NCBI GenBank assembly: GCA_038087875.1
Contig: CM075993.1
Coordinates: forward strand, 3,040,001-3,104,000
From: Malacoraja senta
Taxonomy: Eukaryota
Length of the DNA stretch: 64,000 nt
Direction: 5' to 3'
Shown in pieces: positions 2,674 to 56,055 of the stretch. Positions within the stretch are counted from its first letter, which is position 1. Each line of letters starts with the position of its first letter. The notes under the pieces are model-generated. The model worked only from the letters and a program-made list of their open reading frames with translations. It was not told the origin of the DNA and did not search any database. The position numbers and the translations under genes were made by a program.

Positions 2674-3015
2674 TTAAAGAAGGAACTGCAGATGCTGGAA
2701 AATCGAAGGTGGACAAAAATGCTGGAGAAACTCAGCGGGTGCAGCAGCATCTATGGAGCGAAGGAAATAGGCAACGTTTCGGGCCGAAACCCTGAAGGAA
2801 ATAGGCAACGTTTCGGGACGAAACCCGGAAGGGTTTCGGGCCGAAACGTTGCCTATTTCCTTCGCTCCATAGATGCTGCCTCACCCGCTGAGTTTCTCCA
2901 TCACTTTTGTCTACCTTCGATTTTCCAGCTGCCTATTTCCTTCAAGGTTTCGACCTATTTCGACCTATTTCCTTCGCTCCATAGATGCTGCCTCACCCGC
3001 TGAGTTTCTCCACTA
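2674..3015. mobile_element. Palindromic Penelope-derived non-autonomous element
   Basis: Inverted arms of the Penelope terminal segment around a rearranged core; direct repeat ttattcagtg at 2664-2673 and 3016-3025. Confidence 0.75.
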
Positions 3016-3231
3016 TTATTCAGTGGGAAGGTTCAACAGGTTGAACCTGTGGAACGTGTCAGAATTAAAGGACGTTCTTTTCGGAAGGAGATGAGGAGGA
3101 ATTTCTTTAGTCAGAGGGTGGTGAATCTGTGGGATTGTACAAGATGTATTCGAGGGAGAGTTGAGTTAGATATAGCTCTGAGGGCTAACGGAATCAGGGG
3201 ATATGGGGAGAAAGCAGGAACGGGGTACTGA

Positions 3232-3570
3232 TTCAAGTGAGTTTATTGTCATGTGTCCCAGATAGGACAATGAAATTCTTGCTTTGCTTCAGCACAACAG
3301 AATATAGACGGCATGAATACAGAACAGATCAGTGTGTCCATATACCATTATATAAATATATACACGCATGGATAAATAAACTGATAAAGTGCAAATAACA
3401 GATAATTGGCAATTAATGTTCAGAGTTTTGTTTGAGTTGAGTTCAATAGCCTGATGGCTGTGGGGAAGTAGCTATTCCTGAACCTGGACGTTGCAGTCTT
3501 CAGGCTCCTGTACCTTCTACCTGAAGGTAGCGGGGAGATGAGTGTGTGGCCAGGATGGTGTGGGTCCTTG
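3232..3570 (-). mobile_element. Rex1/Babar-type LINE 3' fragment
   Basis: Same sequence family as 17097-17590 (GRRYRSLKTAT..RFRNSYFPTAIRLLN plus 3' UTR ending gacaataaac). Confidence 0.75.
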
Positions 3571-3574
3571 TGGT

Positions 3575-3800
3575 CACTAGCGCTATCCTACACACACTAG
3601 GGACAATTTACCACTTTTACCGAAGCCACTTTTACTTCAAACCTGTACGTCTCTGGAGTGCGGGGGGGAAACCGGAGCTCCTGGGGAAAACCCACGCAGG
3701 TCACGGGGAGAACGTACAAACTCCACACAGACAGCACCAGTAGTCAAGTTCGAACCCGGGTCTCTGGTGCTGTAAGGATGCAACTTACAGTGCCGCCCTA
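3575..3800 (-). mobile_element. V-SINE fragment
   Basis: Reverse complement of V-domain and B box. Confidence 0.75.
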
Positions 3801-4059
3801 TTGCGATGCACAAGGCAGTTAAAAGGTTAATCAAGACAGTAAAATGAAATGACAATATTTGTCAAGTTGACAAAGATATGGCAAGTAAAAGTGAAGTATT
3901 TATTTTTGTTCGTTTTCCAGCTATAAACAGTGCTTCTTCCCCATAAAACAGAATCATCATGGTACTTTTATGATCTTACTCGCAGCTGCAGACATTTTTC
4001 TCCCGTTTCATCAGGCTGCATTTTATTTGTCTGCTTTTAGTTTTTAGTTTCTTTTAGTT

Positions 4060-4833
4060 TTTAGTTTGTAGGGATGCAGCGCGGAAACAGGCCCTTCAGC
4101 CCACCGAGTCCGCGCCGACCAGCGATCCCCGCACGCTAACACTCCCCTACACACACACACCGGAGACAACTTACATTTACACCAAACCAATTAACCTGCA
4201 AACCTGTAGGACTTTGGGGCAAGGGGGGGAAACCGAAGATCTCGGAGAAAGGCGAGAAGCACGGGGGGAACGTACAAACTCCGTACAGACAAGCACCCGT
4301 AGTCAGGAGTGAACCTGGGTCTCACAGTCCCCACGGTGAAGATGTGGATTACGGATATGTCCGAGACGATACATTTGGAAAACATTAGGCTTGTCTTGGC
4401 GGAAAAAAACATCAATTTCTTAAGACATGGACACCATTTAATGAATTTCTGTAACAACAGAATGGTTAAACACAAATTTAAATTTAAATCCGACGCCAGG
4501 GATGGGTGGGGGGGTGGAACGGTATATGTCCATCTTTTCTTTTCTTATTTCTTTTCTTTTCTCTTGCACTTCTTTGGTAGCTTAGGGGTCTTTTTCCTGC
4601 TCTTTTGTATTTCACTTTTTTTCTTCATTCTTTCTATGTTTTCCTTCTTTTTTTGTTAATTTTTTTTTTGATTTAGGTTATAAGGTTAAAATTGAAGCTG
4701 TACAAAAATTGTATAACTGCTATGTCGATCGTCTTATCCTTGTACAATTGCTTCTAATAAAATAAAATTTAAAAGAACCTGGGTCTCTAGCGATGTGAGG
4801 CAGCAGCTCTACATGTTACGCCATCGTGCTGCC
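4060..4833 (-). mobile_element. V-SINE split by an L1-type insertion
   Basis: SINE tail and body 4060-4323, tRNA head resumes at 4775-4833. Confidence 0.8.
4324..4774 (+). mobile_element. L1/Tx1-type LINE 3' end (ORF2 C-terminus plus T-rich UTR)
   Basis: Peptide PTVKMWITDMSETIHLENIRLVL resembles fish L1 ORF2 C-termini; aataaa and A-rich end; 13-bp direct repeat gaacctgggtctc at 4311-4323 and 4775-4787. Confidence 0.7.
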
Positions 4834-4877
4834 CAAATTTAGTCGAGATGTCAGGAACATCTATTAAGAGGGGAAGG

Positions 4878-5104
4878 CAGATAAAAATGCTGGAGAAACT
4901 CAGCGGGTGAGGCAGCATCTATGGAGCGAAGGGCGAGGTGATGTTTCGGATCTAAACCCTTCTTCAGACTATCTGAGTTGGAAGAAGGGTCTCGACCCAA
5001 AACGTTGCCTATTCCTTCACTCCATAGATGCTGCCTCACCCGCTGAGTTTCTCCAGCATTTTTACCGGCCTTCGATTTTTCCAGCATCTGCGGTTCCTTC
5101 TTAA
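4878..5104. mobile_element. Inverted pair of Penelope terminal segments
   Basis: aaatgctggagaaactcagcggg... followed by its reverse complement ...cccgctgagtttctccagcattt. Confidence 0.7.
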
Positions 5105-5397
5105 AGATTAAGAAGGGAGAGTGAGAAACCAAAGCCCGTAACCTCTCAGTTATTTGGGGTATCTGGTGTTCTACATAATAGACACTGTCTCAGAATCCCA
5201 CCTTGGACTCTTTAGCTTCCAACTAGAAAAATGACACAAAGTGCTGGAGTAACTCAGAGTCTGATGGAGGATCCTAACACCATCATCACCTCCCCATGTT
5301 CTCCAGAGAAGCTGCCTCATCCGTCAGTGACTCCAACACCTTGTGCCTTTTCTGTAAACTAGCATCTGCAGTTCCCCAGATCACCCTTTGGCTTAAA

Positions 5398-6285
5398 ACT
5401 GGCAAAAGGTATAGAGGTGTGAAAACGCACACCTCCAGATTCAGGGACAGTTTCTTCCCAGCTGTAATCAGGCAAGTGAACCATCCTACCACAACCAGAG
5501 AGCGGTCCTGAACTACTATCTACCTCTTTGTTGACCCTTGGACGATCCTTGATCGGACTTTGCTGGCTTTACCTTGCACCAAAATGTATTCCCTTACCAT
5601 GTATCTGTAATCATGTATTGTCTCTCCGCTGACTACTTAAAGGCCTGTTTCACGAGTCTGCGGTCATTGGCGGCGAAACGGAAAGAATCTGCCGCCATAG
5701 ACCGCGCACTCGTGAGAACGTACAATTCCGGGGCCGTGCGGCGGTGTTCCCAATAAAATAAAACCGACAATGTCAAAAACTATATACTCACCGCACAGCC
5801 TCCACCAGTGATGCACGAGTGCGGCACGGCCGCCCGCACGGGACGCCGCCAGTTTGGCTCGAGCGCCGTGCGTCAAACCTCCACTGCCACAGCCTCCGCC
5901 AGTGAGGCACGTGTGCGGCACGGCCGCAGGCACAGCCACCGCTACAGCGCTGCGATCAGGACGGCCGCCGCCACAGCCGCCGCTGGTGAGTCACGTGCGG
6001 CGAGCCGACGTCATCGCAGTCGGCCCGCCCTTTTTTTACTTACCGCAAGCACGTGGGACCCGCCGTGTTTGAATTACTCGGCCCCCGTGCAGCATCCGTG
6101 TGGCGCTCCCGTGGATAGGCTCGGCGCTCTCACCGTTGCCGCGTGGTCCCCGCTACCGGCGACGCCGCGCTTCACCGCCGATGACCGCAAACAGGTTAGA
6201 CAGAGCCTTTAGCAGGCAACACAAAAGCTTTTCACTGTTCCTCGGTACACGTGACAATAAACTAAACTGAACTGAAGTGAACTCT
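5398..6285 (+). mobile_element. Rex1/Babar-type LINE 3' fragment (second subfamily) split by a MITE
   Basis: GKRYRGVKTHTSRFRDSFFPAVIRQ peptide; tail gacaataaactaaactgaactg resumes after 6211. Confidence 0.7.
5640..6208. mobile_element. GC-rich Harbinger-type MITE
   Basis: Imperfect TIRs (aaggcctg...tgcggtcattggcggcgaa / ttcaccgccgatgaccgca...cagagcct) flanked by TTA on both sides, interrupting a LINE tail. Confidence 0.7.
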
Positions 6286-7204
6286 GAACAACTCACGAGC
6301 TCCCTTTTACTTTAAGTCAGTACCCTCGATAAGAGAGGAGAAATACATCTGTGTCAACTGAACTGTTATTCAGTCTGAAGAAGGGCCTCGACCCTTCGCT
6401 CCACAGATGCTGCCTCACCCGCTGAGTTTCTCCAGCATTTTTGTCTCCATCTTTGTTATTCACAGAGAGTCTGTAATCATTGCACCCAGTGAAAGGTACA
6501 ACAACATAATGGATTATAAAGTGAAATTGTGAGGGCAGACATAGTGTCATACAGTTGTAGATTGAGATAGCATGGAAACAGGCCTTCGGCCCAACATGGC
6601 CACACCGGCCAACATGCCCCAGCTACACTAGTCCCACTTGCCCACGTTTGGTCCATATCCCTCCATGTACCTGTCTAACTGTTTCTTAAACGTTGGATAG
6701 TCCCAGCCTCAACTACCTCCTCCGGCAGCTTGTTCCATGCACCCACCACCCACCGTGTGGAAATGTGTTCAGGAATTTTTATAATGGTGTTCTATTTGCA
6801 TTTCGTCATTTTTTTTTTTTAACGTTAATGACCTTGGAGACTGGAGCAGATGATTTCAGGACCTGCCAACTGCTGCCTGCCTTGGCACAGTGCCCCGTTA
6901 TCTCATTCATCGCCAGGCCTTCACTGAAGCTCACCACTCATTCTCCACTGGAGTCAAGGGTAGAAGTTGCAGAGGCCCGGGTCGCTGTCTGTCTGCGATC
7001 CGTCCCGCAGTTGCATGGTAGCGGTCCCACTTTGTTTGAAGTCGCAGATGTTTAATCGGCCGTTCAGGGTCTCCTCGTTCGATGGTGACAGTTTCAATTG
7101 CGTTGCCCGCTTGGAATTTCTTTGTAGATTGGGCTGCACGACAGTCCCTTTTCTTCCATTGTCACGTTTGGCATCAGGGTCTTTGTAATCATCTATGGCA
7201 GCAG

Positions 7205-7932
7205 GGTGGCGCAGCGGTAGAGTTGCTGCCTTAAGGGCCTGTCCCACGGGCATGCGACTCCATGCGGCAAGCGCGACCTAACCGCAAGCGGGGGCCGTGC
7301 GGGGGCCGCGCGGAGGTCGTGGGGCCGGTCCCACTTCGATCGCGGGAGCCGCATGGAGTTGTGCGGAGCTGGTCCCGACATCGCGCGGGGCTCCGAAAAA
7401 CTGACACTGTTCAAAAATTCCGTAGTGGCAACGGCCTGCCGGCCCGCAGCCGCATCGAGGCCGTGCGCGCCGTACGCACCGTCTTGACGTCACTCGACCC
7501 TCCGCGCGCCCCCCGCTTCCAGTTTGGTAGCGCTTGCCGCATGCAGCCGCATGCTGGTGGGACCGGCCCTGTACGGGGATCACTCGACCTCCGCGCGGCC
7601 CCCGCTTGTGGCTAGGTCGCGCTTGCCGCATGGAGTCGCATGCCCGTGGGACAGGCCCTTTACAGAGCTTACAGCGCCAGAGACCCAGGTTTGATCCCGA
7701 CTACGGGTGCTGTCTGTACGGAGTTTGTACGTTCTCCCCGTGACCTGCGTGGGTTTTCTCCGAGATCTTCGGTTTCCTCCCACACTCCAAAGACGTACAG
7801 GTTTGTAGGTTAATTGGCTTGGTGTAAATGTAAAAAATTGCCTCTAGTTTGTGTAGGATAATGTGCGGGGATCGCTGGTCGGTGCGGACTCGGTGGGCCG
7901 AAGGGCCTGTTTCCGTGCTGTATCTCCAAACG
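7205..7932 (+). mobile_element. V-SINE split by a MITE
   Basis: A box at 7207, remainder resumes at 7660 through the tail gggccgaagggcctgtttccgtgctgtatctc. Confidence 0.85.
7234..7659. mobile_element. Harbinger-type MITE with long TIRs
   Basis: About 70-bp TIR starting agggcctgtcccacgggcatgcgactccatgcggcaagcgcgaccta; TTA at 7231-7233 and 7660-7662. Confidence 0.9.
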
Positions 7933-8049
7933 AAAATGTCTTTCTTGCTTCCAGTTCCTCCCCCTACAATCAGTCTGAAGAAGCGTCCCAACCCTAAACG
8001 TCACCTACCTATGTTCTCCAGACATGTTGCCTGACCCGCTGAGTTACTC

Positions 8050-8470: not shown

Positions 8471-8473
8471 AAG

Positions 8474-8912
8474 GAGAAGGAATGGGTGACGTTTCGGGGC
8501 GAGACCCTTCTTCAGACTGAGTCACGGATAAGGAAGTGTAGGGTGTGAAAATTAGACAAAGGGGATGGAGAACAAGGAAGTTGTAGAGTATATCAATGTT
8601 AGCTGGGAGAAGGTGACAACAGAGCAAACAGGGATAAAATGTAATTGAGGACAGTCAGACTGGTCGGAGAATTGGGAAGGGGAGTGATGGAGAGGAGGAA
8701 AAGCAAGGGTTACTTGAAGATAGAGAAGTCAATGTTCATACCGCTGGGGTGTAAGCTACCCAAGCGAAATATGAGGTGCTGTTCCTCCAATTTGCGCTGT
8801 GCCTCACTCTGACCGTGGAGGAGGCCCAGGACTGAAAGGTCAGTGTGGGAATGGGAGGGGGAGTTGAAGTGCTTAGCAACCGGGAGTTCAGGCAGGTTTA
8901 GGCGGACTGAGA
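8474..8912 (-). mobile_element. Penelope-like element 3' fragment
   Basis: Reverse complement of the GIY-YIG C-terminus (KLEEQHLIFRLGSLHPSGMNIDFS) plus terminal ctgaaga...gaaacgtc segment. Confidence 0.8.
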
Positions 8913-10640: not shown

Positions 10641-10644
10641 TAAC

Positions 10645-12319: not shown

Positions 12320-12815
12320 GCTGAACACCTACACTCAGCCCGCCTGAACCAACCTGATCTCCCGGTTGCTAAACACTTTAATTCCCCTTCCCATTCCCAC
12401 ACTGACCTTTCTGTCCTCGGTCTCCTCCATTGTCAGAATGAGGCTAAACGCCAATTGGAGGAACAGCATCTCATATTTCGCTTGGCCAGCTTACAGCCCA
12501 GTGGTATGAATATTGATTTCTCTAACTTTAAGTAACCCCAGCATTCCCTCTCTCTCTATCCCTCCCCCACCCAAGTCGCACCAGCTTCTCATTTTCACCC
12601 AACAAACAGCTAACAACGGCCTGTTTCCTTTATCATCGTTACTTTTCTGCATATCTTTCATTCATTGTTCTTTATCTCCCTACATCACCGTCTATATCTC
12701 TCGTTTCCCTTAACCCCAACCAGCCTGAAGAAGGGTCTCGACCCGAAACGTCACCCATTCCTTCTCTCCAGAGATACTGCCTCTGAGTTACTCCGGCATT
12801 TTGTGTCTATCTACC
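12320..12815 (+). mobile_element. Penelope-like element 3' fragment
   Basis: EHLHSARLNQPDLPVAKHFNSPSH...EEQHLIFRLASLQPSGMNIDFSNFK then UTR and ctgaagaagggtctcgacccgaaacgtc. Confidence 0.85.
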
Positions 12816-13204
12816 ATACCCTGTGTAGGAAGGAACTGCAGATGCTGGTTTAAATCAAAGATAGACACACAAAGCTGGAGTAACTCAACGGGTCAGACAG
12901 CAGCTCTGGAGAGAAGGAATGGGTCCTTCCATTCCTTGACTATTCAATGCTTGTTAGTCTGAAAAGGACTTGTATATTTGTATCTGGTAATCAAATCTCA
13001 CCGTGTACTGGAATATTACCTTAATTCAATGTGAAGAAAGTTAATATTCGGGCCAAGCGCAGATGCTGCTTGGCCCCGCAGAGTTCCTCCAGCAGTTTGT
13101 GTTTGGCTTAACATTCCAGTTTCCACTGTTCATTGTTTCAAGTGCATGAAGGAACTGCAGATGCTGGTTTAAAGCGAAGATAGAGACAAAATGCTGGAGT
13201 AACT

Positions 13205-16274: not shown

Positions 16275-16520
16275 TACACCCCAGCGGTATGAACATTGAC
16301 CTCTCCAATTTCAGGTAGTCCCTGCTTTCTCCCTCCTTCCCCTCCCCTTCCCAGCTCTCCCACAGCCCACTGTCTCCGCCTCTTCCTTCCTTCATCCCGC
16401 CCCCTCTCCCCCCACCCCCACATCAGTCTGAAGAAGGGTCTCGACCCGAAACGTCGCCTATTTCCTTCGCTCCATAGATGCTGCCTCACCCGCGGAGTTT
16501 CTCCAGCATTGTTGTCTACT
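16275..16520 (+). mobile_element. Penelope-like 3' end with hammerhead-like motif
   Basis: PSGMNIDLSNFR end, pyrimidine-rich UTR, CTGAAGA-agggtctcgaccc-GAAA-cgtc at 16428-16455. Confidence 0.8.
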
Positions 16521-22043: not shown

Positions 22044-22574
22044 TTAGGCAGAGGTTCACTTGCACCTCCTCCAATCTCATCTACTGCATCCATTGTTCAA
22101 GATGTGGACTCTTATACATCAGCGAGACCAAACGTAGACTAGGCGATCGTTTAACTGAACACCTACACTCAGCCCGTCTCAACCTACCTGATCTCCCGGT
22201 TGCTAAACACTTTAATTCCCCTTCCCATTCCCACACTGACCTTTCTGTCCTCGGTCTCCTCCATTGTCAGAGTGAGGCTAAAGGCAAATTGGAGGAACAG
22301 CATCTCATATTTTGCTTGTGCAGCTTACAGCCCAGTGGTATGAATATTGATTTCTCTAACTTCAGGTAGCCCCGGCATTCCCTCTCCTCTCTATCCCTCC
22401 CCCACCCAAGTCGCACCAGCTTCTCGTTCTCACCCTACAAACAGCTAACAATGGCCTGTATCCTTTATCATCGTTACCCTTTTGCATATCTTTCATCCAT
22501 TAGACAATCGACAATAGACAATAGGTGCAGGAGTAGGCCATTCGGCCCTTCGAGCCAGCACCGCCATTCAATGT

Positions 22575-23540
22575 TCTGGATGATGGTGTGGTAAATTGGA
22601 TTAGTAAGTATGCAGATGATACTAAGATAGGTGGGGCTGTGGATAATGAAGTAAATTTTCAAAGTCTACAGAGAAATTTATGCCGGTTGGAAGAGTGGGC
22701 TGAAAGATGGCAGATGGAGTTTAATGCTGATAAGTGTGAGGTGCTACATCTTGGCAGGACAAATCAAAATAGGACGTACATGGTAAATGGTAGGGAATTG
22801 AAGAATGCAGGTGAACAGAGGGATCTTGGAATAACTGTGCACAGTTCCCTGAAAGTGGAATCTCATGTAGATAGGGTGGTAAAGAAAGCTTTTGGTGTGC
22901 TGGCTTTTATAAATCAGAGCATTGAGTATAGAAGTTGGGATGTAATGTTAAAATTGTGCAAGGCATTGGTGAGGCCAATTCTGGAGTATGGTGTACAATT
23001 TTGGTTGCCTAATTATAGGAAGGATGTCAACAAAATAGAGAGAGTACAGAGGAGATTTACTAGAATGTTGCCTGGGTTTCAGCAACTAAGTTACAGAGAA
23101 AGGTTGAACAAGTTAGGTCTTTATTCTTTGGAGCGCAGAAGGTTAAGGGGGACTTGATAGAGGTCTTTAAAATGATGAGAGGGATAGACAGAGTTGACGT
23201 GGATAAGCTTTTCCCACTGAGAGTAGGGAAGATTCAAACAAGGGGACATGACTTGAGAATTAAGGGACAGAAGTTTAGGGGTAACATGAGGGGGAACTTC
23301 TTTACTCAGAAAGTGGTGGCTGTGTGGAATGAGCTTCCAGTGAAGGTGGTGGAGGCAGGTTAGTTTTTATCATTTAAAAATAAATTGGATAGTTATATGG
23401 ACGGGAAAGGAATGGAGGGTTATGGTCTGAGCGCAGGTATATGGGACATGGGGAGAATACGTGTTCGGCACGGACTAGAAGGGGTCGCGATGGCCTGTTT
23501 CCGTGCTGTAATTGTTATATTATATTATATATTATATTAT
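22575..23540 (+). mobile_element. CR1-type LINE reverse transcriptase C-terminal fragment (frameshifted near 23154)
   Basis: KYADDTKIGG catalytic motif, WQMEFNADKC, LVRPILEY, RGNFFTQKVVAVWNELP; (atatt)n tail. Confidence 0.92.
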
Positions 23541-24777: not shown

Positions 24778-25704
24778 GGAGCCGCCATCTTGGAGGAACG
24801 GCTGCTAAACAGCGGCCGTCCGTCAAATTCACTCTTTCTTTAGTTTAGCGTTTTTTATTTCTTTGTTTGTTTGGGGGATTTTTACTTTTAATGTGGCGGG
24901 GTAAGGGGGTAACTATTTCTGGGTCCCTACCTGGTCGGTGAGGCAGCTTTTTCTCCGGGCTGCCTCGTCGACCCGTCCTCGTGGCCTACCAGCGGGCATG
25001 GAGCGCCGTTTCCTGACGTGGACCGCCCAGCACCTTCAGCTTCGGTGGCGGCACAGCGCTGGAGCGCTAACGTGGAGCGATGCCTTGCCTGGATCGCCGC
25101 GCTGGATCGACGCGCTGGAGCTCCGGTGAGCTGGACCGCCGAGCTCAACACCTCCGGGCTGCAGGACTGCGGCGCCGACTCCAACATCGGGAGCCTCGTG
25201 GCTCCAAATCGGCGCGGCCCTGTCGGCTTCAGGTGCCATCGACTCCGCTGGGAAACCGGCCGTTCCAGCCGCTGCGAGGACTCTCCCGACGGCCAGGAAC
25301 ATCGGGCCTCCGTAGAGGCAACTGTGGCGGCCTCGATGGGCCTGACTCTGGGGAGAACTGGGTTGGGGACTGGACGTTGTGCCTTCCCCCACAGTGGTGG
25401 TCATTGTGGGGGGATGATTTCTGTGTGCTGTGCCTGTTAGTCTGTGTGCAAGATGGCGGTCGGAGGGGAGAGTGGACGCTGGCGCGAATTGGTCGCCGCT
25501 GCTCTCTCCTCAAATTGTGTTTCTTATTTTCTTTTTGTGCTCTTGAAATTGAATTCTGTCCTTGATTTGTGTACCGTGGTGTTTTTATATTTGATTTATT
25601 CCAATTATGTGTTTTGTATTTTTTTGTGATTCTATGTCTTGTAAGGTGTCCTTGGGTTTTAGAAAGGCGCCAGTAAATAAAATGAATTATTATTATTATT
25701 ATTA
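24778..25704 (+). mobile_element. GC-rich non-autonomous retroelement (copy B) with L2-type tail
   Basis: 11-bp direct repeat ttaaagaagga at 24767-24777 and 25705-25715; tail gtaaggtgtccttgggttttagaaaggcgcc...(att)n. Confidence 0.75.
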
Positions 25705-25949
25705 TTAAAGAAGGAACTGCAGATGCTGGAAAATCGAAGGTAGACAAAAATGCTGGAGAAACTCAGCGGGTGCGGCAGCATCTATGGAGCGAAGGAAATA
25801 GGCAACGTTTCGGGCCGAAACCCTTCCGGGTTTCGTCCCGAAACGTTGCCTATTTCCTTCAGGGTTTCGGCCCGAAACGTTGCCTATTTCCTTCGCTCCA
25901 TAGATGCTGCTGCACCCGCTGAGTTTCTCCAGCATTTTTGTGTACCTTT
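25705..25949. mobile_element. Palindromic Penelope-derived non-autonomous element (its first bases lie at 24764-24777)
   Basis: Core is the reverse complement of the 2674 core; near-perfect direct repeat agtcttt(t/c)accatt at 24750-24763 and 25950-25963. Confidence 0.75.
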
Positions 25950-26244
25950 AGTCTTTCACCATTCCTCTCTTCCCAGTCACATTCCGACTAATGTTATCCA
26001 AAGGCATTAACACTTGAAATATTAATACCGCACAGTGTGACAGCCAAGCAGTGTGCAGTGATTATCTGATTAGATGTGTTGACATTCTGCTGTGGTATTT
26101 TCTTACCTGAGGTTATTTGAGTTGGCAGCACTGTGGAACCAAACTTTGTCCTTGGCAGCCCACTCAACATGTTGACGTTGGAAATTGGAGGTGACTTCTG
26201 TCTGTCCCTCTTCATTACTGTTCTGTTTTTGTGCCTTAGTTCAT

Positions 26245-28179: not shown

Positions 28180-28788
28180 AACATAGAATCATAGAATCAT
28201 AGATACATAGACAATAGGTGCAGGAGTAGGCCATTCGGCCCTTCGAGCCAGCACCGCCATTCAATATGATCATGGCTGATCATCCTAAATCAGTAAGTAG
28301 ACAAAAATGCTGGAGAAACTCAGTGGGACAGGCAGCATCTCTGGAGAGAAGGAATTGGTAGGAAGGAACTGCAGATGCTGGTTTAAATCGAAGATAGACA
28401 CAAAATGCTGGAGTATCTCAGCGGGGCGAGATCCTTCTTAAAAACTTTTGTTACGTTGGTGAAAGGACAATATTTATCTTCCAGTCTGAAGACGGGTTTC
28501 GGCCCGAAACGTTGCCTATTTCCTTCGCTCCATAGATGCTGCTGCACCCGCTGAGTTTCTCCAGCATTTTTGTCTACCTTCGATTTTCCAGCATCTGCAG
28601 TTCCTTCTTAAATCCTAAATCAGTACCCCGTTCCCGCTTTCCCCCACCATATCCCTTGATTCCTTTAGCCCTAAGAGCTGTATCTAACTCTCTCTTGAAA
28701 ACATCCAGTGAATTGGCCTCCCCTGCCTTCTGTGGCAGAGAATTCCACCGATTCACAACTCTCTGGGTGAAAAAGTTGTTCCTCATTA
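28180..28788 (-). mobile_element. CR1 3' end interrupted by Penelope segments (28296-28611)
   Basis: 14-bp direct repeat atcctaaatcagta at 28282-28295 and 28612-28625. Confidence 0.8.
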
Positions 28789-31785: not shown

Positions 31786-31789
31786 TTGA

Positions 31790-32422
31790 CCTACTTCTAC
31801 AGATGCGGAGAGTGATTGGCATCTGTTGGCTGTGAGAACAGACCAGAGGCTGCTTCACAGAACACCTCCGCTCAGTCCGCCTAAACCTACCTGATCACCA
31901 CTTCAACTCCCCCTCCCATTCCCACACTGACCTTTCTGTCCTGGGCCTCCTCCATTCTCAGAGTCAGGCCCAAGGCAAATTGGAGGAACAGCACCTCATA
32001 TTCCACTTGGGCAACTTACACCCCAGCGATATGAACGTTGACTTGTCTAACTTCAAGTAACCCTCTCTCTGTCCCTCCCCCTTCCCAGTTCTCCGACCAG
32101 TCTGACTGTCACTGACTACATTTTATCTCTGTTTACTTTGTTGTCACCTTCTCCCAGCTAACAACGATCTCTTCGACATTGTCTTTGAACTCCATCCCCT
32201 TTGTCCCGTGTTCACACCTTACACTTCCTTATCTATGAATCTCCCTCTCCCCTGACATCAGTCTGAAGAAGGGTCTCGACACGAAACATCACCCATTCCA
32301 TCCCTCAAGAGATGTGCTATTGTCCTATCTGTGACACATGATAATAAACTCGCTTGACTTGACTTGGCTTGGCTCTTGATGCTGCCTATCCCGCTGAGTT
32401 ACTCCATCATTTTGTGTCTACC
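31790..32422 (+). mobile_element. Penelope-like element 3' fragment
   Basis: Degenerate GIY-YIG coding remnant, UTR and ctgaagaagggtctcgacacgaaacatc. Confidence 0.75.
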
Positions 32423-32735
32423 TTGCGTGCTTGAAGGTCCATTAACTTCTGTGGCTGATTAGAATTCCAGGCAGCAAAATGAGCCATGCCTCTTCTGACT
32501 GTACAGAACATCCCATCTCGTAATTATGATTTTTTAATCTTGTACCTTTAATTTATCTTTGTGGTGATCGTGTCTCCTTCTTCAGAACGTCCCGCCTCCA
32601 ATGTCATCCATTACTTCATCCTCACCGACTCGGTCTCCTTCAGGTTTATTCATTTCTTTCAGGTTCCTTTCTGTCAGAGCTGAGCCTCGACTAAACCCTG
32701 GCACATTTATATTACAAACGGCAGATCATATTCCT

Positions 32736-32934
32736 TGGTACACAAAAATGCTGGAGAAACTCAGCGGGTGCAGCAGCATCTATGGAGCGAAGGAAATAGG
32801 CAACGTTTCGGGCCGAAACCCTTCTTCAGAAACGTTGCCTATTTCCTTCGCTCCATAGATGCTGCTTCACCCGCTGAGTTTCTCCAGCATTTTTGTCAAC
32901 CTTCGGTTTTCCAGCATCTGCAGTTCCTTCTTAA
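32736..32934. mobile_element. Inverted pair of Penelope terminal segments
   Basis: About 70-bp arms forming a fold-back around gggccgaaacccttcttca. Confidence 0.75.
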
Positions 32935-34097
32935 ACCAAAGGAATAGTTAGATCTCAAGCCGGGTGTTGAGCAGCCAGGTTGTTGTCTCTGTTGGCGTCA
33001 ATGTCTGCCAGGCCCTGAGCTCCATTGGTAGAGCGGGCACCCAGAGATGACATCGATAACACGAATTCAAACCAAGGATAGGAGAAAGACCAAGTGTCGC
33101 AGCCTTGAGCCAAGCTTCGCCCTCTAATTTCGGAGCGGGCGGCAGCTGCCGTCAAAGGCAGGGATGCTGGGATACAACAGCTGAATGTTGAAGATCTCAC
33201 CAGCTGCTGCCATCATATTCCTTGAAAGCATCTTGCTGAGGTACAGGCCGACAAAAAACGCTGGAGTAACAGGCAGCATCTCTGCAGAGAAGGAATGGGT
33301 GGTGTTACAGGTCAAGATCTTACGGGTCGAGATCAGGACCGCTCTCTGGTTGTGGTAGGATGATTCAGTTGCCCGATAACAGCTGGGAAACCTGTTCACA
33401 AGCAAAACAACAGACAGGCGAAGTTACTGAATCTGGGGGATAATTTCCGTGGGCTAAGTTTCTGCATTTGCTTTTCCAGTTAGCACCCAAACATTTCACT
33501 GTTCCATGAACCCATAACAAAGTGAAACTCGATTAGAAATTTGAAATAAAGCATTAAAAAATGCATTCTTATTGGAGAAAATCAGCTCAGGTTTTCATAA
33601 GCATTCTTCGATGAGCAACGTCTCGAATCTATCTTCACAATAGCGGAATTCTAAAGGATTAAGGAATTGTGAAACTATCTAGAGAAGTTAATTGATGTCA
33701 ATGTGCTCTGAGATATGGATAAATACAGGAGCCCACAATGTTTTGAGTGTTGCAATGTTTAGAGCTATTATTTCTGAGTTGAATAACATAGGAGTTCTTT
33801 TCAACTCTTGTTCAATTTGCAGCAGAGCATTTTAAACAAGTGAATGGGTCGACCTTTGTACAGTGCCAGCTTCCTCCAGCAGAATTTCATCTGCATTCGA
33901 ACAAACCCTTTGTTGGGAGTTTTTTTAAGATATTATTAGTTTTGTTCTGCATTTACAAGTTCATTATTAGCTTCTCTGATTTGTTCTATGCTGAGGTAAA
34001 GCATCTTGCCTGGACTGTTGGTTACAGGACTATTGGCTTCCACTTACTGAATAAGTAATCAGACCTTTTAAAGAGTACTTAGTTATAATTTTACTTC

Positions 34098-46809: not shown

Positions 46810-48418
46810 CAGTATTCATACCCCTTGAACTTTTCCACATTTTGTCACGTTACAACCACAAACGTAAATGTATTTTATTGGGATTTTATGTGATAGACCA
46901 ACACAAAGTGGCGCATAATTGTGAAGTGGAAGGAAAATGATACATGGTTTTCAAATTTTTTTACAAATAAAAAACTGAAAAGTGTGGCGTGCAAAAGTAT
47001 TCAGCCCCCTTTACTCTGATACCCCCTAAATAAAATCCAGTGCAACCAATTGCCTTCAGAAGTCACCTAATTAGTAAATAGAGTCCACTTGTGTGTAATC
47101 TAATCTCAGTATAAATACAGCTGTTCTGTGAAGGCTCAGAGGTTTGTTAGAGAACATTAGTGAAAAAACAGCATCATAAAGCCAAAGGAACACACCAGAC
47201 AGGTCAGGGATAAAGTTGTGGAGAAGTTTAAAGCAGGGTTAGGTTATAAACAAATATCCCAAGCTTTGAACATCTCACGGAGCACTGTTCAATCCATCAT
47301 CCGAAAATGGAAAAGAGTATGGCACAACTGCAAACCTACCAAGACATGGCCGTCCACCTAAACTGACAGGCCGGGCAAGGAGAAGCATTGATCAGAGAAG
47401 CAGCCAAGAGGCCCATGTAACTCTGGAGGAGCTGCAGAGATCCACAGCTCAGGTGGGAGAATCTGTCCACAGGACAACTATTAGTCGTGCACTCCACAAA
47501 TCGGGCCTTTATGGAAGAGTGGCAAGAAGAAAGCCATTGTTGAGAAAAAAGCCATAAGAAGTCCCGTTTGCAGTTTGCCACAAGCCATGTGGGGACACAG
47601 CAAACATGTGGAGTAAGGTGCTCTGGTCAGATGAGACCAAAATTGAAGTTTTTGGCCTAAATGCAAAACGCTATGTGTGGCGGAACCTAACACTGCACAT
47701 CACCCTGAACACACCATCCCCACTGTGAAACATGGTGTGGTGGCTAGCATCATGCTGTGGGGATGCTTTTCTTCAGCAGGGACAGGGAAGCTGGTCAGAG
47801 TTGATGGGAAGATGGAATGGAGCTCAAATACAGGGCAATCTTGGAAGCAAACCTGTTAGAGTCTGCAAAAGACTTGAGACTGGGGCGGAGGTTCACCTTC
47901 CAGCAGGACAACGACCCTAAACATACAGCAGAGCTACAATGGAATGGTTTAGATCAAAGCATATTCATGTGTTAGAATGGCCCAGTCAAAGTCCAGACCT
48001 AAATCCAATTGAGAATCTCTGGCAAGACTTGAAAATTGCTGTTCACAGACGCTCTCCATCCAATCTGACTGAGCTTGAGCTATTTTGCAAAGAAGAATGG
48101 GCAAAAATTTCAGTCCCTAGATGTGCAAAGCTGGTAGAGACATACCCCAAAAGACTTGCAGCTGTAATTGCAGCGAAAGGTGGTTCTACAAAGTATTGAC
48201 TCAGGGGGGCTGAATACCTTTGCACGTGGCACTTTTCAGTTTTTTATTTGTAAAAAAATTTGAAAACCATGTATCATTTTCCTTCCACTTCACAATTATG
48301 CGCCACTTTGTGTTGGTCTATCACATAAAATCCAACTAAAAATACATTTACGTTTGTGGTTGTAACGTGACAAAATGTGGAAAAGTTCAAGGGGTATGAA
48401 TACTTTTGCAAGCCACTG
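46810..48418 (+). mobile_element. Tc1/mariner transposon, Passport-like, near full length
   Basis: About 200-bp inverted repeats with internal direct repeats, TA at 46808-46809 and 48419-48420; left TIR lacks about 13 bp near its start. Confidence 0.93.
47176..48199 (+). pseudogene. Tc1 DDE transposase, frameshifted, start codon ATA
   Basis: Motifs [33 protein letters not shown] and C-terminus [12 protein letters not shown] across several frames. Confidence 0.92.
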
Positions 48419-49868: not shown

Positions 49869-50227
49869 ATCACTGTGCTTGCATTGTTCCGTTGCCAGGG
49901 AGTCAAACAGGAACTTAATCCGCCAGGGAGCACAAACAATTGATGTGAGCCTTGTGCAGAGCATAAAACCCAGTGTGGGTCTGATGAACTCATGCCTGTG
50001 TCTGCAGTGAATACTACAAGGTATTAAGAGATTGGATTTTGAATAAAATGTCCTTTGCATATTAACAGGAGATAACACTGGCCTGCAGCGGGACTAGTCG
50101 ACGTTAATGTTGGATGACTTTTCAACATCCACGCTATTATTAAGTGGGACAACAAATTAAATAATTCGATGAGAATATGGAGCATAAAAATAGCTGGCAA
50201 AGTTCAAGGGACACAATTGAAAGTTAC

Positions 50228-50955
50228 AATAGACAACAGACAATAGGTGCAGGAGTAGGACATTTGGCCCTTCGAGCCAGCACCGCCATTCAATGTGGTC
50301 ATGGCTGATCATCCCCAATCAGTACCCCGTTCCTGCCTTCTCCCCATATCCCCTGACTCCGCTATCTTTAAGAGCCCTATCCAGCTCTCGCTTGAAAGCA
50401 TCCAGAGAACCTGCCTCCACCGCCCTCTGAGGCAGAGAATTCCACACACTCACAACTCTCTGTGAGAAAAAGTATTTTACCAAATGATGAAAGGCTTGGA
50501 TAGAGTGGATGTGGAGAAAATAACATGACAAGCGTTTGTCGGCACTGGGCCTGTATTCGTTGGAGTTTAGAAGGACGAAGGGGGTACCTCATTGAAACTG
50601 ACCGAATAGTGAAAGGCTTGGATGTGGAGAGGATTTTTCCACTCGTGGGAGAGTCTAGGACTAGAAGCCACAGCCTCAGGATTAAAGGACGTTCCTTTAA
50701 GAAGATGAGGAGGAATTTCTTTAGTCAGTGGGTGGTGAATCTGTGGAATTCATTCCCACAGAAAGCTGTGGAGGCCAAGTCAATGGATGTATTTAAGGCA
50801 GAGATAGATAGATTCTTGATTAGTACGGGTGTCAGGGTTATGGGCAGAAGGCAGGAGAATGGGGTTAGGAGGGAGAGGTAGATCAGCCATGATTGAATGG
50901 CAGAGTGGACTTGATGGGCCGAATGTCCTAATTCTACTCCTATTCCTTATGACCT
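50228..50955. mobile_element. Two opposed CR1 3' fragments
   Basis: Minus-strand copy 50228-50472 and plus-strand copy 50485-50955 with RRNFFSQWVVNLWNSFP. Confidence 0.8.
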
Positions 50956-51009
50956 ATCACTCTGTCTCCTCATTGGTACCATAGCAACATTTAATAGACA
51001 AAATGTTTT

Positions 51010-51377
51010 GAGAAGGAACTGCAGATGCTGGAAAATCGAAGGTAGACAAAAATGCTGGAGAAACTCAGCGGGTGCAGCAGCATCTATGGAGCGAAGGAGA
51101 TAGGCTGGGTCAAGATTAGAAAATTGTACTTGGCAATTAGCTCGGAGCTGAGAAATTCACCAGCCTGTGTTATGTGGTTCCTTTGTCAATCAGTGGCTAG
51201 GAAATCTATCTGGAGAAACTCAGCGGGTGCAGCAGCATCTATGGAGCGAAGGAAATAGGCAACGTTTCGGGTCGAAACCCTTCTGATGGGGTGCGAGAGA
51301 TATTTATTGTTGCCTATTTCCTTCGCTCCATAGATGCTGGCTCACCCGCTGAGTTTCTCCAGCATTTTTGTCTACCT
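51010..51377. mobile_element. Penelope-derived composite carrying a copy of 56058-56167
   Basis: 51101-51210 is the reverse complement of the flank of the 55840 element. Confidence 0.8.
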
Positions 51378-51768
51378 GACATTTATAGAAATTGAACATA
51401 GACATGGATAGGAACGGTTCAGTGGGATTTGGGTCAAACGTGGGCCAGGTGGGATTAGAATTTGTGTGAAGGGATGGTTGATGGTTGGCACGGACTCAGT
51501 GGGCTGAAAGGCCCGGTTATCCTGCTGTATCCCTAAATGTATAAAATATTCAACTTCATTGGAGTATTATTTCTCCCGTGTTCAGTCAATAAATCGACTC
51601 CAGTGTTGGTGGTGGGAGGAAATGCTGGCAATCACTTTAAATCACCAAACACAGATATCCCACAGAATAACTTCAGGACAGGATGTTCTGTGAAATTAAT
51701 AAGTTTACAATCTTCCTAATATATAATACTCTCTACATATTTGGCATTGTGCGTTTGCTCAGGGTAAT

Positions 51769-52024
51769 GGCCCTGTCCCACTGTACGAGCTAATTCAAGA
51801 GTTCTCCCGAGTTTGCCCTGATTGATCGACTCGGAGAATTACGGTAATGGCCGCTCGTCGGTACTCGGGCTCTCGTGGACATTTTTCAACGACTTCACGA
51901 GTCTTCACGAGCTTACCGCGGTTTCCCGAGTACCTGCCGTTAGCGTTGCGAGCCGCTAAGAGACGTCCCGAGCTCCGACGTACCCGCTACGTACATTCTA
52001 CGTGCTTCCACGAGTTTGATTTTA
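51769..52024. mobile_element. Harbinger-type MITE, right end truncated by CR1 sequence
   Basis: Left terminus ggccctgtcccactgtacgag; body matches the 26374 family. Confidence 0.75.
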
Positions 52025-53595
52025 CCACAGGGGCCACAGTTTAAGAATAAGGGGGTAACCCATTTAGAACGGAGATGAGGAAAAACTTTTTCCAAAGAGA
52101 GTTGTGAGTCTGTGGAATTCTGTGCCTCAGAGGGCGGTGGAGGCAGGTTCTCTGGATGCTTTCAAGAGAGAGCTAGATAGGGCTCTTAAAAATAGCGGAG
52201 TCAGGGATTATGGGGAGAAGCAGGAACGGGGTACTGATTGGGGATGATCAGCCATGATCAATTGATGGCGGTGCTGGCTCGAGGGGTCGAACGGCCTACT
52301 CCTGCACCTATTCTCTATTGTCTATTAGTAAGATCCCATAAACAGGAATATGATACAGGTTGCAATTAATTGCTGGATAAACATTTGGCAGGGAACATGG
52401 GTAACTTTCCCTTAGAAAGACACAAAAAGCTGGAGTAACTCAGCAGGTCAGACAACTTCTCTGGAGAAAGGAATAGGTGGCGTTTGGGGTCGAGACCCTT
52501 CTATCTTCAGTTTGAACCAGCATCTGCAGTTCCTTCCTACACATTAGTTCCCTGCTGTTTTTACAATGGAGTTTTTGAATCATGTATTGTCTCTCCGCTG
52601 ACCGGTGAGCACGCAACAAAAGCTTTTCACTGTACCTCGGTACGTACAGTAAACTAGTGTTGGGTCACAGACAGCCTGACTGTCTTATGACGTCTCTAGA
52701 CTCTCTTTCTACACAGTACGATCACGCAACCTAATCTCTCTCGACTATTAACCTCTACATACTCTATTAGGACTCTGAAGTCCTTCTAGTCTCTACCTTG
52801 ACTCTCTACATCTATCTGAGCATAGGTTATTTAATTAGCAGGAATTAAATTCAGCAGTTGCCTGGCGGGATTTGAACCGGGATCTCTGGTCTAGACTCGG
52901 GATTACTTGTCCAGTGATATTACTACTCTGCTGCAGAAGGAGATAAGGACTTGGGCATGCCATCCAGGAGAAGCAATTGAATAATTACTTAAATGTACTT
53001 GCGATTCTCTTGTTCTTACTGCTATTCTCCTCAGTAGTTTTCAGCTGCTGGCTCTGGAAGGTGTTATATCTGCTGACAGGTGACACCTCTTATCTGAAAT
53101 TACTCATTTGCAGTTCACAAACCTGCTTGATTTCAGCTTGCACAAAGTCACGGGCTAATTTGAAGGTGTTATTTTAGGCTATTACTGCAGTTCCCCAGCC
53201 GTCGATTAACATGTGGGCAACATGCAATTTTGGAAAGTAATTATACGCTGTGTATCTGTCTGTGGACGGTACAAACCAAAAGGAGTCCTTTTAAAAAAAA
53301 CAAAAACGAACAGGTTTCTCTTGAGCGGGAGTGGTCAATGAGAGGGCGGGAATCCCATTAGTTTAAGAAGGAACTGCAGATGCTGGAAAATCGAAGGTAG
53401 ACAAAAATGCTGGAGAAACTCAGCGGGTGAGGCAGCATCTATGGAGCGAAGGAAATAGGTGACGTTTCGGGTCGAAAAGTCCTGATACGAAATGTCACCT
53501 GGTTTAGTTTTAGAGATACAATGTGGAAACAGCCATTCAGCCATCAAGTCCATGCTGACCATCGATCATTCTATGTTACCCCCCTTTTTGGATCT

Positions 53596-54295
53596 AGAAA
53601 CATAGAAACATAGAAACATAGAAATTAGGTGCAGGAGTAGGCCATTCGGCCCTCGAGCCTACACCGCCATTCAATATGATCATGGCTGATCATCCAACTC
53701 AGTATCCCGTACCTGCCTTCTCTCCATACCCCCTGATCCCTTTAGCCACAAGGGCCACATCTAACTCCCTCTTAAATATAGCCAAAGAGCTGGCCTCGAC
53801 TACCCTCTGTGGCAGAGAGTTCCAGAGATTCACACTCTCTGTGTGTGAAAAAAGTTCTTCTCATCTCGGTTTAAAGGATTTCCCCCTTATCCTTAAGCTG
53901 TGACCCCTTGTCCTGGACTTCCCAACATCGGGAGCAATCTTCCTGCATCTAGCTGTCCAACCCCTTAAGAATTTTGTAAGTTTCTATAAGATTCCCTCTC
54001 AATCTCCTAAATTCTAGAGAGTATAAACCAAGTCTATCCAGTCTTTCTTCATAAGACAGTCCTGACATCCAGGAATCAGTCTGGTGAACCAGGTGTGGTC
54101 TCACCAAGACCCTGTACAACTGCAGTAGAACCTCCCTGCTCCTATACTCAAATCCTTTTGCTATGAAAGCTAACATACCATTCGCTTTCTTCACTGCCTG
54201 CTGCACCTGCATGCCTATTTTCAATGACTGGTGTACCATGACACCCAGGTCTCGCTGCATCTCCCCTTTTCCTAGTCGGCCACCATTTAGATAAT
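53596..54295 (-). mobile_element. CR1-type LINE RT fragment with internal deletion
   Basis: QRDLGVMVHQSLK...KANGMLAFI...LYRVLVRPHL; (tagaaaca)n tail. Confidence 0.85.
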
Positions 54296-55307
54296 TTACA
54301 CACTTTGGGCAATTTTTACAGAAGCCAATTAACCTACAAATCTGCAGAGGGTTTCGGCCCGAAACGTTGCCTATTTCCTTCGCTCCATAGATGCTGCCTC
54401 ACCCAGCTGAGTTTCTCCAGCATTTTTGTCTACCTACAAATCCAGGCGTCTTTCGAATGAGGGAGGATACCGGGACAATGGGAAAAAGCAGGTCACGGGT
54501 GAGAACGTACAAACTGCGTACAGACAAGCACCCGCAGTCAGGATCGAACCTGGGTCTCTGGCGTTGCAAGCAGCAACTCTACCGTTGCGCCACCGTGCCG
54601 CCCTACCTCTGCGTCACGTACACTGACCTAACTCAGGCATACATCATGAGATTCTGAGAATCATGAGGAAAAATAGCTCTTCGTGCTAACGGAATCAAGG
54701 GATATGGGGAGTAAGCAGGAACGGGGTGATCAGCCATGATGGTGGTGCTGGCTCGAAGGGCTGAATGGCCTACTCCTGTACCTATGTTTCGAAAATGGGA
54801 GATCCTATTCCCTGATAAACATTGACAGACATCCGGAGTTTTGTAGCTGTCTGGTAATTCCAGCGTCAATGATGATAGTTTTTAATTCCAGATTTATTTA
54901 ATTGAATTTAAATGGCCCACCACTGCCAATGGTGGGATTGAAGCTTAAATCTTCAGATCATCGGTCTGGCTTTCTCCCTTCCTAATCCCCTAACATACAC
55001 CACCAGGCTACCAGCATCCCTCGTGTCTGACATGATGGAGGATTGGCTTTTCACTTTCTTCATTTTAATAGTTTTAAGTGCTTTAAAATTAATTAAGATT
55101 AGTTCATGAGCCACATTGTATTAATTTTAATTTCTGCAAGAAATTAATGCAAGATCCCCTGCGTTCCAACATGAGGCCAGAGGATTTAATGGAACACGCT
55201 GAAAGAGCTACATAAACATATGGAGATTGGAATTACAAGACCCTTTCGTGAACCATCTTAAGAATCTTTGGGGGGTCACGGATTTTGATTGCAGGGGCCG
55301 AGAGTTA

Positions 55308-55705
55308 AGCCCCTGTCCCACTGCGGCGACCTAATTGGCGAGTTTAGACGAGTTTGCCCTCGACTCATACTCGCAGCATGAGGTCCGAGGAGGTCTTTGT
55401 AACTCTCCTGCATGCTCGAGAGTAGTCCCCGCGTACTCGAGGCCTCAACTAGGTTGCGCCGTATTTTGCAAAATGCCCGCGAGTAAAAAAATGTCGCCAT
55501 GGAAAAAATCGATACTTTTTTTACTCGTAGGTTTAGTAGGTCGGCATGTTGGTCGTAGGTAATCGAGGGGAGTCGAAGGTAGTCGTAGATAGTCTTCATC
55601 ATAGTCGAAGGGAGGTCGAAGGAGGTCGTCTTCACTCTCCTCTATTCGGTGTCCAATTTTCCCCCGAAGTTAGTGGAAGGAAGTCTTCAACATGACACTT
55701 TTTCA
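55308..55705. mobile_element. Harbinger-type MITE, right end missing
   Basis: Left terminus agcccctgtcccactgcggcgaccta after TTA; body matches the 21633 family. Confidence 0.75.
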
Positions 55706-55839
55706 GTTCAGTTGCCTGATAACAGCTGGGAAGAAACTGTCTTGGTTGTTATCAGGCAACTGAATCATCCTACCACAACCAGAGACAGTTGGGAGTGAGA
55801 AAATGACATGAAACCAGTGCAGATCAGATAGATTTTCTA

Positions 55840-56055
55840 CGTTTGCAGATGCTGGAAAATCGAAGGAAGACAATAATGCTGGAGAAACTCAGCGGGTGCA
55901 GCAGCATCTATGGAGCGAAGGAGATAGGCAACGTTTCGGGACGAAACCCTGAAGGAAATAGGCAACGTTTCGGGACGAAACCCGGAAGGGTTTCGTCCCG
56001 AAACGTTGCCTATTTCCTTCGCTCCATAGATGCTGCTGCACCCGCTGAGTTTCTC
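55840..56055. mobile_element. Palindromic Penelope-derived non-autonomous element
   Basis: Same core junction as 2674; exact 15-bp direct repeat cagatagattttcta at 55825-55839 and 56056-56070. Confidence 0.8.

What the first reader, a model, noticed from the sequence alone, without database searches (positions are those of the whole stretch)
2674..56055. Palindromic Penelope-derived mini-element that seems to move as a unit, with an invertible core
Seen: copies at 2674-3015, 25705-25949 and 55840-56055 have inverted arms around the same rearranged core (gaaaccctgaaggaaataggcaacgtttcgggacgaaacccggaagggtttcg), and each has its own 10-15 bp direct repeat. In the 25.7 kb copy the core is reversed while the long arm is still on the left. 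Known: Penelope insertions often have an inverted 5' segment, but those junctions should be copy-specific. Inference: a fold-back non-autonomous family mobilised in trans, with core flipping through the inverted arms. Simpler fold-backs occur at 4878, 28296 and 32736.
Basis: partly seen in the sequence, partly recalled or inferred. Interest (0 to 1): 0.7.

Follow-up and report, generated by a model that had tools for sequence, protein, structure and literature searches.

The report
Re-copied Penelope hairpin insertions, locally clustered
Three small hairpin-shaped leftovers of a Penelope jumping gene share one accidental junction, so one dead insertion was copied again, probably from neighbouring DNA or RNA; the core's apparent flipping is better explained by how each copy was inserted than by later inversion.

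Summary
The three copies are real and descend from one event: an identical 54-nt run (34-nt tandem duplication, one fold-back joint, a private base change) occurs 3 times in 64 kb, none expected by chance; the other 9 of 12 head-to-head pairs have different joints. Flanks are unrelated, so not segmental duplication. Target duplications hold for A (10 bp) and C (15 bp) but not B. The parent is a GIY-YIG Penelope element whose normal 3' repeat lacks the core. The 'long arm' is the known optional 30-nt Penelope tail (19 of 24 young arms end at one of two sites), so the core's reversal in B needs only priming on the other arm; A carries the junction in both orientations inside one insertion. Public contigs show related junctions beyond these copies and that C predates a species split, but junction depth is at most 1.2-1.6% of arm depth against 3 of 24 arms here, which suggests a low-copy, locally clustered lineage (rough). 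A fourth insertion 4.7 kb from C captured C's arm plus 110 nt of its flank, showing local templating. Verdict: new variant of known Penelope behaviour; invertible core not supported.

The parts
2664..2673 (+). Left target duplication of copy A (10 bp; repeated at 3016-3025)
2675..2793 (-). Copy A left arm: Penelope terminal repeat including the 30-nt tail (reference positions 6-124)
2794..2827 (-). Copy A core: 34-nt tandem duplicate with private base change and the fold-back joint
2828..2929 (+). Copy A right arm (to reference position 105)
2930..2953 (+). Reversed remnant of the duplication joint inside copy A (22 of 23 identical to the core, opposite strand)
2964..3012 (+). Second, shorter right arm of copy A
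25706..25826 (-). Copy B long arm with tail; in core orientation it corresponds to the right arm of A and C
25827..25860 (+). Copy B core, reversed relative to A and C, identical in sequence
25861..25949 (+). Copy B short arm, ending at the tail-less site (reference position 93); no target duplication of 6 bp or more
55825..55839 (+). Left target duplication of copy C (15 bp; repeated at 56056-56070)
55844..55950 (-). Copy C left arm (to reference position 112)
55951..55984 (-). Copy C core
55985..56058 (+). Copy C right arm (to position 77, 3-nt overlap with the target duplication); junction also present in organism B
51011..51377 (-). Separate Penelope insertion (x51) that captured C's right arm and about 110 nt of C's right flank (51101-51209 = 56059-56167, inverted), 180 of 184 identical
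4873..5105 (.). Fold-back insertion with its own, different joint
28287..28611 (.). Composite fold-back insertion with filler, 13-bp target duplication, different joint
32737..32936 (.). Fold-back insertion with its own joint; one arm tail-less, one with tail
8515..8911 (-). Older relative of the parent element: end of the GIY-YIG frame, 3' untranslated part, then the terminal repeat with the hammerhead motif and no core
22052..22369 (+). 105-aa GIY-YIG endonuclease remnant of the same Penelope lineage
16275..16519 (+). Young-type copy in which the last codons of the frame run through the 3' part into a plain terminal repeat, no core

Best explanation
One ordinary head-to-head Penelope insertion acquired a 34-nt duplication at its joint and lost the first half of the hammerhead core. 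Later, Penelope protein made elsewhere copied this hairpin again from read-through RNA (or nearby DNA) of an existing copy. Because the element is a palindrome, either arm can present the internal priming site; the protein cuts and extends both target strands, starting at the tail-less or the tail-bearing site, and the two cDNAs can meet within the arms. The centre is therefore inherited, while the ends, the outer-arm variants and the orientation of the core relative to the tail are reset at each insertion. The lineage is low-copy and enriched in this neighbourhood because templates near the insertion site are used. Shown: common descent, separate insertions, Penelope parent, two modal ends, one local capture. 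Inferred: RNA template, trans action, two-ended priming, local enrichment.
For: Identical 54-nt centre in 3 copies; 9 of 12 head-to-head pairs have other joints. Distinct target duplications in 2 of 3, unrelated flanks in 3 of 3. 19 of 24 young arms end at reference 88-94 or 120-124, matching the two initiation sites and optional 30-40-nt tail, both-strand cutting and ATT preference reported for a Poseidon element (PMC11167929). The two-base arm marker beside the core is the same on the core-left arm in 3 of 3 copies, while the other arm shows three different variants, each also seen in core-less copies; B's short arm has an outer variant shared with 2 core-less copies but not with A or C. A holds the joint in both orientations within one target duplication. 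x51 copied C's arm, target junction and flank from 4.7 kb away; it is the only two-copy, otherwise unique segment of the window apart from a pair of long terminal inverted repeats, and it shares a 1-nt deletion with organism B's orthologous flank, so it is old and not an assembly slip. Total contig depth at the first base after the fold-back joint is 1.2%, 1.6%, 1.2% and 0.07% of peak arm depth in 4 of 4 runs, against 3 cores per 24 arms here.
Against: No RNA evidence. Contig depth is, by the tool's own warning, not a copy number; if junction contigs are merged the ceiling rises from about 500 to about 15,000 copies, and this window was picked because it shows three copies. 10 of 32 listed contig pieces cross one of the joints and are not A, B or C, in organisms A, B and E, so the junction or look-alikes exist elsewhere. 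Arm markers are few and one sits at a CpG. x51 stops just short of the core, so it shows local capture, not local capture of the core. Three perfectly identical cores would be unlikely (about 0.7%) if all were as old as C's flank divergence implies; for C alone it is 19%, so A and B are probably younger or arms were homogenised.
Confidence: 0.55

Rival explanations
1. The core is the 5' inverted end of an autonomous master copy. Since reverse transcription starts inside the RNA, just past the 5' terminal repeat, read-through transcripts of that master yield these mini-copies in cis, scattered over the genome.
For: Internal initiation copies whatever lies upstream (PMC11167929); inverted 5' copies are typical of full-length elements (PMC8557442). 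Junction-crossing contigs other than A, B, C exist.
Against: No arm runs on past the tail into shared sequence in 15 of 15 ends read; copies linked to the frame have no core, though these are 3' repeats. Does not explain three copies in 53 kb if the core is rare.
Confidence: 0.15
2. An abundant genome-wide non-autonomous family (thousands of copies) that moves as a unit; three copies in 64 kb simply reflect its density.
For: 3 of 12 head-to-head pairs carry it. One contig of run X1 crosses both joints with 4 differences from C where A and B have 1; three duplication-joint contigs in organism B have depth 45-99 against 35 for the flank.
Against: Depth ceiling of 1.2-1.6% of arm depth versus 12.5% here; binomial chance of 3 or more of 24 is 0.003-0.006 at those rates (before allowing for selection of the window). 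Ends are not fixed. Most other joints listed sit near single-copy depth.
Confidence: 0.15
3. DNA-level capture: new Penelope insertions, or a repair polymerase at the cut, copied the core from a neighbouring genomic copy; no transcript of the hairpin is needed.
For: x51 joins C's flank to a terminal repeat through a 4-nt microhomology; A shows several short slips and switches. Templated and inverted inserts at breaks are known (search listing only, PMC11724301).
Against: Outer ends of A and B fall on the reverse-transcription start sites; A to B and B to C are 23 and 30 kb apart. Not separable from an RNA template by sequence alone.
Confidence: 0.1
4. After insertion the core inverts by recombination between the inverted arms.
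For: Arms of 83-102 bp at 92-94% complementarity are present; crossovers outside the markers would carry them along with the core; C's three units share one variant, which hints at exchange within the hairpin.
Against: Not needed: the tail can land on either arm at insertion; tail-on-one-side also occurs in core-less fold-backs (32737, 4873); no locus was seen in two orientations.
Confidence: 0.05

Closest known systems
Inverted-pLTR insertions of endonuclease-bearing Penelope-like elements (Penelope/Poseidon, Neptune; Pen2a_Av type)
   Same: Head-to-head terminal repeats, optional 30-40-nt tail on one end, 9-10-bp-scale target duplications or none, palindromic joints, trans mobilisation of sequence between solo repeats (PMC3846280 passages; PMC8557442 passages).
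   Different: Here no coding part at all, and one joint is inherited by several insertions instead of being made anew.
Poseidon of Anolis carolinensis (PAc), in vitro mechanism
   Same: Two internal start sites that delimit the tail, cutting and extension of both strands, ATT preference, ribozyme cleavage dispensable for insertion (PMC11167929).
   Different: That work did not test hairpin templates, trans mobilisation or local capture; the clade of this element was not determined.
Non-autonomous Penelope derivatives: Chlamys-N / MRC1 and animal non-LTR retrozymes
   Same: Short non-coding sequences that depend on Penelope protein (PMC8557442, PMC9977147 passages; bioRxiv 10.64898/2026.07.22.740005 part 1 and passages).
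   Different: Those are head-to-tail repeats, retrozymes with a hammerhead in each unit; these copies are head-to-head and lack the hammerhead's first box.
L1 twin priming and co-insertion of nearby pre-mRNA
   Same: Inversion fixed during insertion, fold-back of flanks, and capture of RNA transcribed near the target (PMC10191854 passage; bioRxiv 10.1101/2024.12.14.628481 passages).
   Different: Different enzyme class; for L1 the captured piece is not shown to found a lineage of further copies.

Membership tests
Penelope-like element (endonuclease-bearing) derivative | Terminal repeat continuous with a frame ending in a GIY-YIG endonuclease | tested here: met
   Copies at 8515-8911, 31871-32263, 12334-12725 and 16275-16428 lead from the frame's end into the repeat; 105-aa remnant scores GIY-YIG weakly in Pfam (E 0.03, below cut-off) and 0.95 to eukaryotic GIY-YIG clusters.
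Penelope-like element (endonuclease-bearing) derivative | Telomerase-like reverse transcriptase in the parent | tested here: inconclusive
   No such frame in the window; 1 of 56 frames scanned hit RVT_1 (22537-23154), and it is not linked to the repeat.
Penelope-like element (endonuclease-bearing) derivative | Optional 30-40-nt tail (two 3' end positions) | tested here: met
   10 of 24 young arms end at 88-94 and 9 of 24 at 120-124; sequence after the tail is host-specific.
Penelope-like element (endonuclease-bearing) derivative | Minimal hammerhead motif in the parent repeat | tested here: inconclusive
   19 exact copies of the first box; by eye the motif has the features listed in PMC4209133. 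Rfam finds no hammerhead and monomer folding does not give the shape.
Non-autonomous family that moves as a unit | Shared internal structure in independent insertions | tested here: met
Non-autonomous family that moves as a unit | Fixed termini | tested here: not met
   Left ends 124, 93, 112; right ends 105/77-84, 124, 77 in core orientation.
Non-autonomous family that moves as a unit | Dispersed, multi-copy in the genome | tested here: inconclusive
   No genome held; contigs show other junction-crossing pieces but a low depth ceiling.
Non-LTR retrozyme | Head-to-tail units, each with a complete hammerhead | tested here: not met
   Head-to-head; no match to the first box with up to 2 mismatches inside A, B or C on either strand.
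MITE (DNA transposon derivative) | Fixed terminal inverted repeats and fixed-length target duplication | tested here: not met
   Ends vary; duplications 10, 15 and under 6 bp.
Invertible DNA segment | One locus found in both orientations | not testable with these tools
   Only half of copy C was laid on contigs; no allele comparison possible.

The most novel reading that the evidence does not exclude
Penelope protein preferentially re-copies hairpin insertions lying near its target, using nascent RNA or DNA of the same locus, so that a dead, ribozyme-less fold-back founds a lineage that creeps along one chromosome region; two-ended priming swaps the outer arms and flips the core at each round. 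Inherited joints would then be natural lineage tags that record the order, distance and strand of Penelope template use.
Probability: 0.3. Interest if true: 0.6.

Novelty: new variant of a known kind. Interest (0 to 1): 0.35.

Why it matters
How Penelope elements make their inverted ends and which templates they use in vivo is still open (PMC8557442, PMC11167929). An inherited, uniquely marked joint lets one test this from genomes alone: whether copies cluster, which strand served as template, and whether outer arms are exchanged at each insertion. It also warns annotators that such hairpins can pass for MITEs or microRNA precursors (Rfam gave sub-threshold microRNA-hairpin scores). If the junction is just one of many small lineages, the finding is a curiosity of ordinary Penelope biology.

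Tried and rejected
No genome is held for the window, so the genome-wide count could not be made. Pattern scans found 0 matches for the core in metagenome contigs and 0 for the plain arm in metagenome, viral and prokaryote genome contigs: the host is simply not in these collections. Rfam: 0 families at gathering score over the window; no hammerhead at relaxed thresholds. No RNA holder listed among 24 runs; this is no evidence on expression, and no RNA run was laid. Organism E (X8) gave no cover of C's flank, which shows nothing about presence. Segmental duplication rejected: A, B, C flanks match only dispersed repeats, not each other. Independent origin of the three cores rejected: two joints plus a private base change coincide, although the duplication joint alone may recur, since it links the two sides of a natural stem in the repeat (inference). 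A first screen for other local captures missed the known positive x51 and was discarded; the replacement recovered it and found no other among 10 chains. Fillers of 14 junction stretches had no distinctive local source apart from the repeat itself. Earlier scan notes: nothing by sequence, place or relatives. Nine literature searches found no paper on an inherited fold-back joint in Penelope mini-copies; the library lacks most subscription journals, Dfam and Repbase were not available, and no supplements were opened, so a matching consensus may exist there.
Full report
Setting. The window is repeat-rich animal DNA; from the repeat content I recall it as typical of a ray or skate, but no call names the organism and no genome is held. 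A 124-nt reference taken from copy B's long arm has 59 hits in the window.

Observation. Copies A (2674-3015), B (25706-25949) and C (55840-56055) are hairpins with arms of 100, 102 and 83 nt; B folds at about -180 kcal/mol on either strand, z below -21, as any such palindrome would. The core is a 34-nt tandem duplication beside one fold-back joint. A 44-nt pattern across both joints matches 3 times exactly, 0 in 100 shuffles; the identical run is 54 nt and includes a base change that the adjoining arms of A and B lack. Of 12 head-to-head pairs in the window, 3 have this centre and 9 have different ones (one of the 9, at 52418-52536, is not a clean fold-back). A has a 10-bp and C a 15-bp target duplication; B has none of 6 bp or more within 40 nt. 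B abuts a (TTA)n tail; a 7-bp repeat at 25437-25443 and 25948-25954 (read) brackets B and the 260 nt before it and more likely belongs to that older insert. Flanks of A, B and C do not match one another. So the junction is inherited and the insertions are separate, but the claim of three 10-15-bp duplications holds for 2 of 3.

Parent. Longer copies run upstream through a pyrimidine-rich stretch into the end of a reading frame. A 105-aa remnant scores GIY-YIG weakly in Pfam (E 0.03) and 0.95 against eukaryotic GIY-YIG clusters, in which 17-42% of members carry that family. A young-type copy at 16275-16519 has the frame's last codons leading into a plain repeat. The repeat carries a minimal hammerhead motif by eye (19 exact first boxes; features as in PMC4209133, parts 1-2 of 4 read); Rfam and folding did not confirm it. 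The first box is absent from A, B and C on both strands. The core is therefore not part of the normal 3' repeat; the 5' end of an autonomous copy could not be checked.

What the long arm is. Of 24 arms at 90% or more identity and 50 nt or more, 10 end at reference 88-94 and 9 at 120-124, and sequence beyond the tail is host-specific in 15 of 15 ends read. This is the optional 30-40-nt tail of Penelope elements (PMC8557442 passages; PMC3846280 passages), which lies between two internal start sites of reverse transcription; the same work shows cutting and extension of both strands, an ATT preference, and no need for ribozyme cleavage (PMC11167929, parts 1-2 of 4 read). Arm length is thus set anew at each insertion. 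Turned to core orientation, B aligns with A and C end to end; the arm marker on the core-left arm is the same in 3 of 3, the core-right arm has three variants, each also found in core-less copies, and B's short arm has an outer variant shared with the core-less copies at 32737 and 45735 but not with A or C. A contains a second, reversed piece of the duplication joint (2930-2953, 22 of 23 identical) inside its single target duplication, so both strands were available as templates within one event. Inference: orientation is fixed during insertion, by use of either strand or by two cDNAs meeting in the arms, much like L1 twin priming (PMC10191854 passage). Later inversion is not excluded but is not needed.

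Local capture. The insertion at 51011-51377 holds, inverted, C's right arm, its target junction and about 110 nt of C's flank, 180 of 184 identical, joined to another repeat through a 4-nt microhomology. A 20-mer screen found 10 two-copy chains; this and one pair of long terminal inverted repeats are the only ones made of otherwise unique sequence. It shares a 1-nt deletion at 56140 with organism B's contig and a change at 56067 with organism A's contigs, so it is a real, old copy. It ends exactly where the core begins and does not contain it.

Beyond the window. Twenty-four runs were listed, all kept as contigs; 4 of them were laid on the right half of C with its flank. Organism A (X1, X2) matches the flank almost perfectly. 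Organism B (X3) has a contig joining C's arm to the flank with 21 differences and 2 gaps in 333 nt, so C predates that split. Of 32 pieces shown (118,445 not shown), 10 cross one of the joints; plain copies would need 16 or more mismatches to do so, and 9 of the 10 differ from C more than A or B do. Only one (X1 record 1) crosses both joints, the second by 6 nt, and letters are not shown, so the others may be mutated descendants or independent look-alikes. Of 15 joints shown (14 not shown), which I read as other fold-back or slip joints, 14 have depth under 100, near single-copy level, and one reaches 430 in X3 and recurs in X8: most joints are copy-specific, a few are shared. Total depth at 55985, a ceiling for contigs crossing the fold-back joint, is 1.2%, 1.6%, 1.2% and 0.07% of peak arm depth, against 3 cores per 24 arms here. 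The tool warns that depth is no copy number; the ceiling is about 500 copies if junction words are fragmented and about 15,000 if merged, and the window was chosen for this feature. Local enrichment is therefore a lean, not a result.

Mechanism. Shown: common descent, separate insertions, Penelope parent, two end positions, one capture of a neighbour. Inferred: a fold-back with a small duplication arose once; loss of the hammerhead box and full pairing may keep its transcript in one piece; Penelope protein in trans copied it from read-through RNA or nearby DNA; the centre is inherited while ends, outer arms and orientation are reset. Confidence 0.55. Rivals: cis copying from the 5' end of a master (0.15), an abundant dispersed family (0.15), DNA-templated capture (0.10), later inversion (0.05).

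Comparison. It works like known inverted-repeat Penelope insertions and trans-mobilised solo-repeat structures (PMC3846280). It fails the tests for retrozymes (bioRxiv 10.64898/2026.07.22.740005, part 1 of 5 and passages) and MITEs, and lacks fixed termini. Non-autonomous Penelope partners are known but head-to-tail (PMC8557442, PMC9977147 passages). Other papers seen as passages: PMC8969392, PMC3681739, bioRxiv 10.1101/2024.12.14.628481. Nine searches found no account of an inherited fold-back joint; Dfam, Repbase and supplements were not seen. Earlier AI notes of this scan describe two-template head-to-head insertions, a local filler capture and a small fold-back in other genomes; they are leads only.

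Verdict. Observation partly confirmed; interpretation partly supported. New variant of a known kind, interest 0.35; the local-lineage reading has probability 0.3 and would deserve 0.6.

Noticed in passing
window 51011-51377 and 55985-56167: A Penelope insertion captured copy C's right arm, target junction and about 110 nt of flank from 4.7 kb away, and keeps a 1-nt deletion also seen in organism B.
   Followed up: yes
window 32723-32736 and 32937-32955: The two host flanks of this fold-back look like imperfect inverted copies of each other (8-bp exact inverted match, no direct duplication), as if the target itself was folded back.
   Followed up: partly
contigs of X3 and X8 laid on window 55973 > 56008: Another fold-back joint with depth 430 in X3 (flank 35) that also occurs in X8: a second shared-joint lineage or a recurrent joint.
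   Followed up: no
window 46811-48404: About 1.6-kb element with 200-bp terminal inverted repeats at 96% identity, probably a Tc1/mariner-type DNA transposon (label recalled, not tested).
   Followed up: no
window 60557-63929: A perfect (CA)n run of 3.4 kb (1,686 units); unusually long and possibly an assembly artefact.
   Followed up: no
window 25437-25705: A 260-nt insert ending in (TTA)n, single in the window, bracketed together with copy B by a 7-bp direct repeat; B sits in its tail.
   Followed up: partly
window 22537-23154: Reverse-transcriptase remnant (Pfam RVT_1, E 0.0002), not linked to the Penelope repeat; likely a LINE fragment.
   Followed up: no
window 12730-12919: Two older Penelope repeats arranged tail to tail (sense then antisense), the rarer arrangement.
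   Followed up: no
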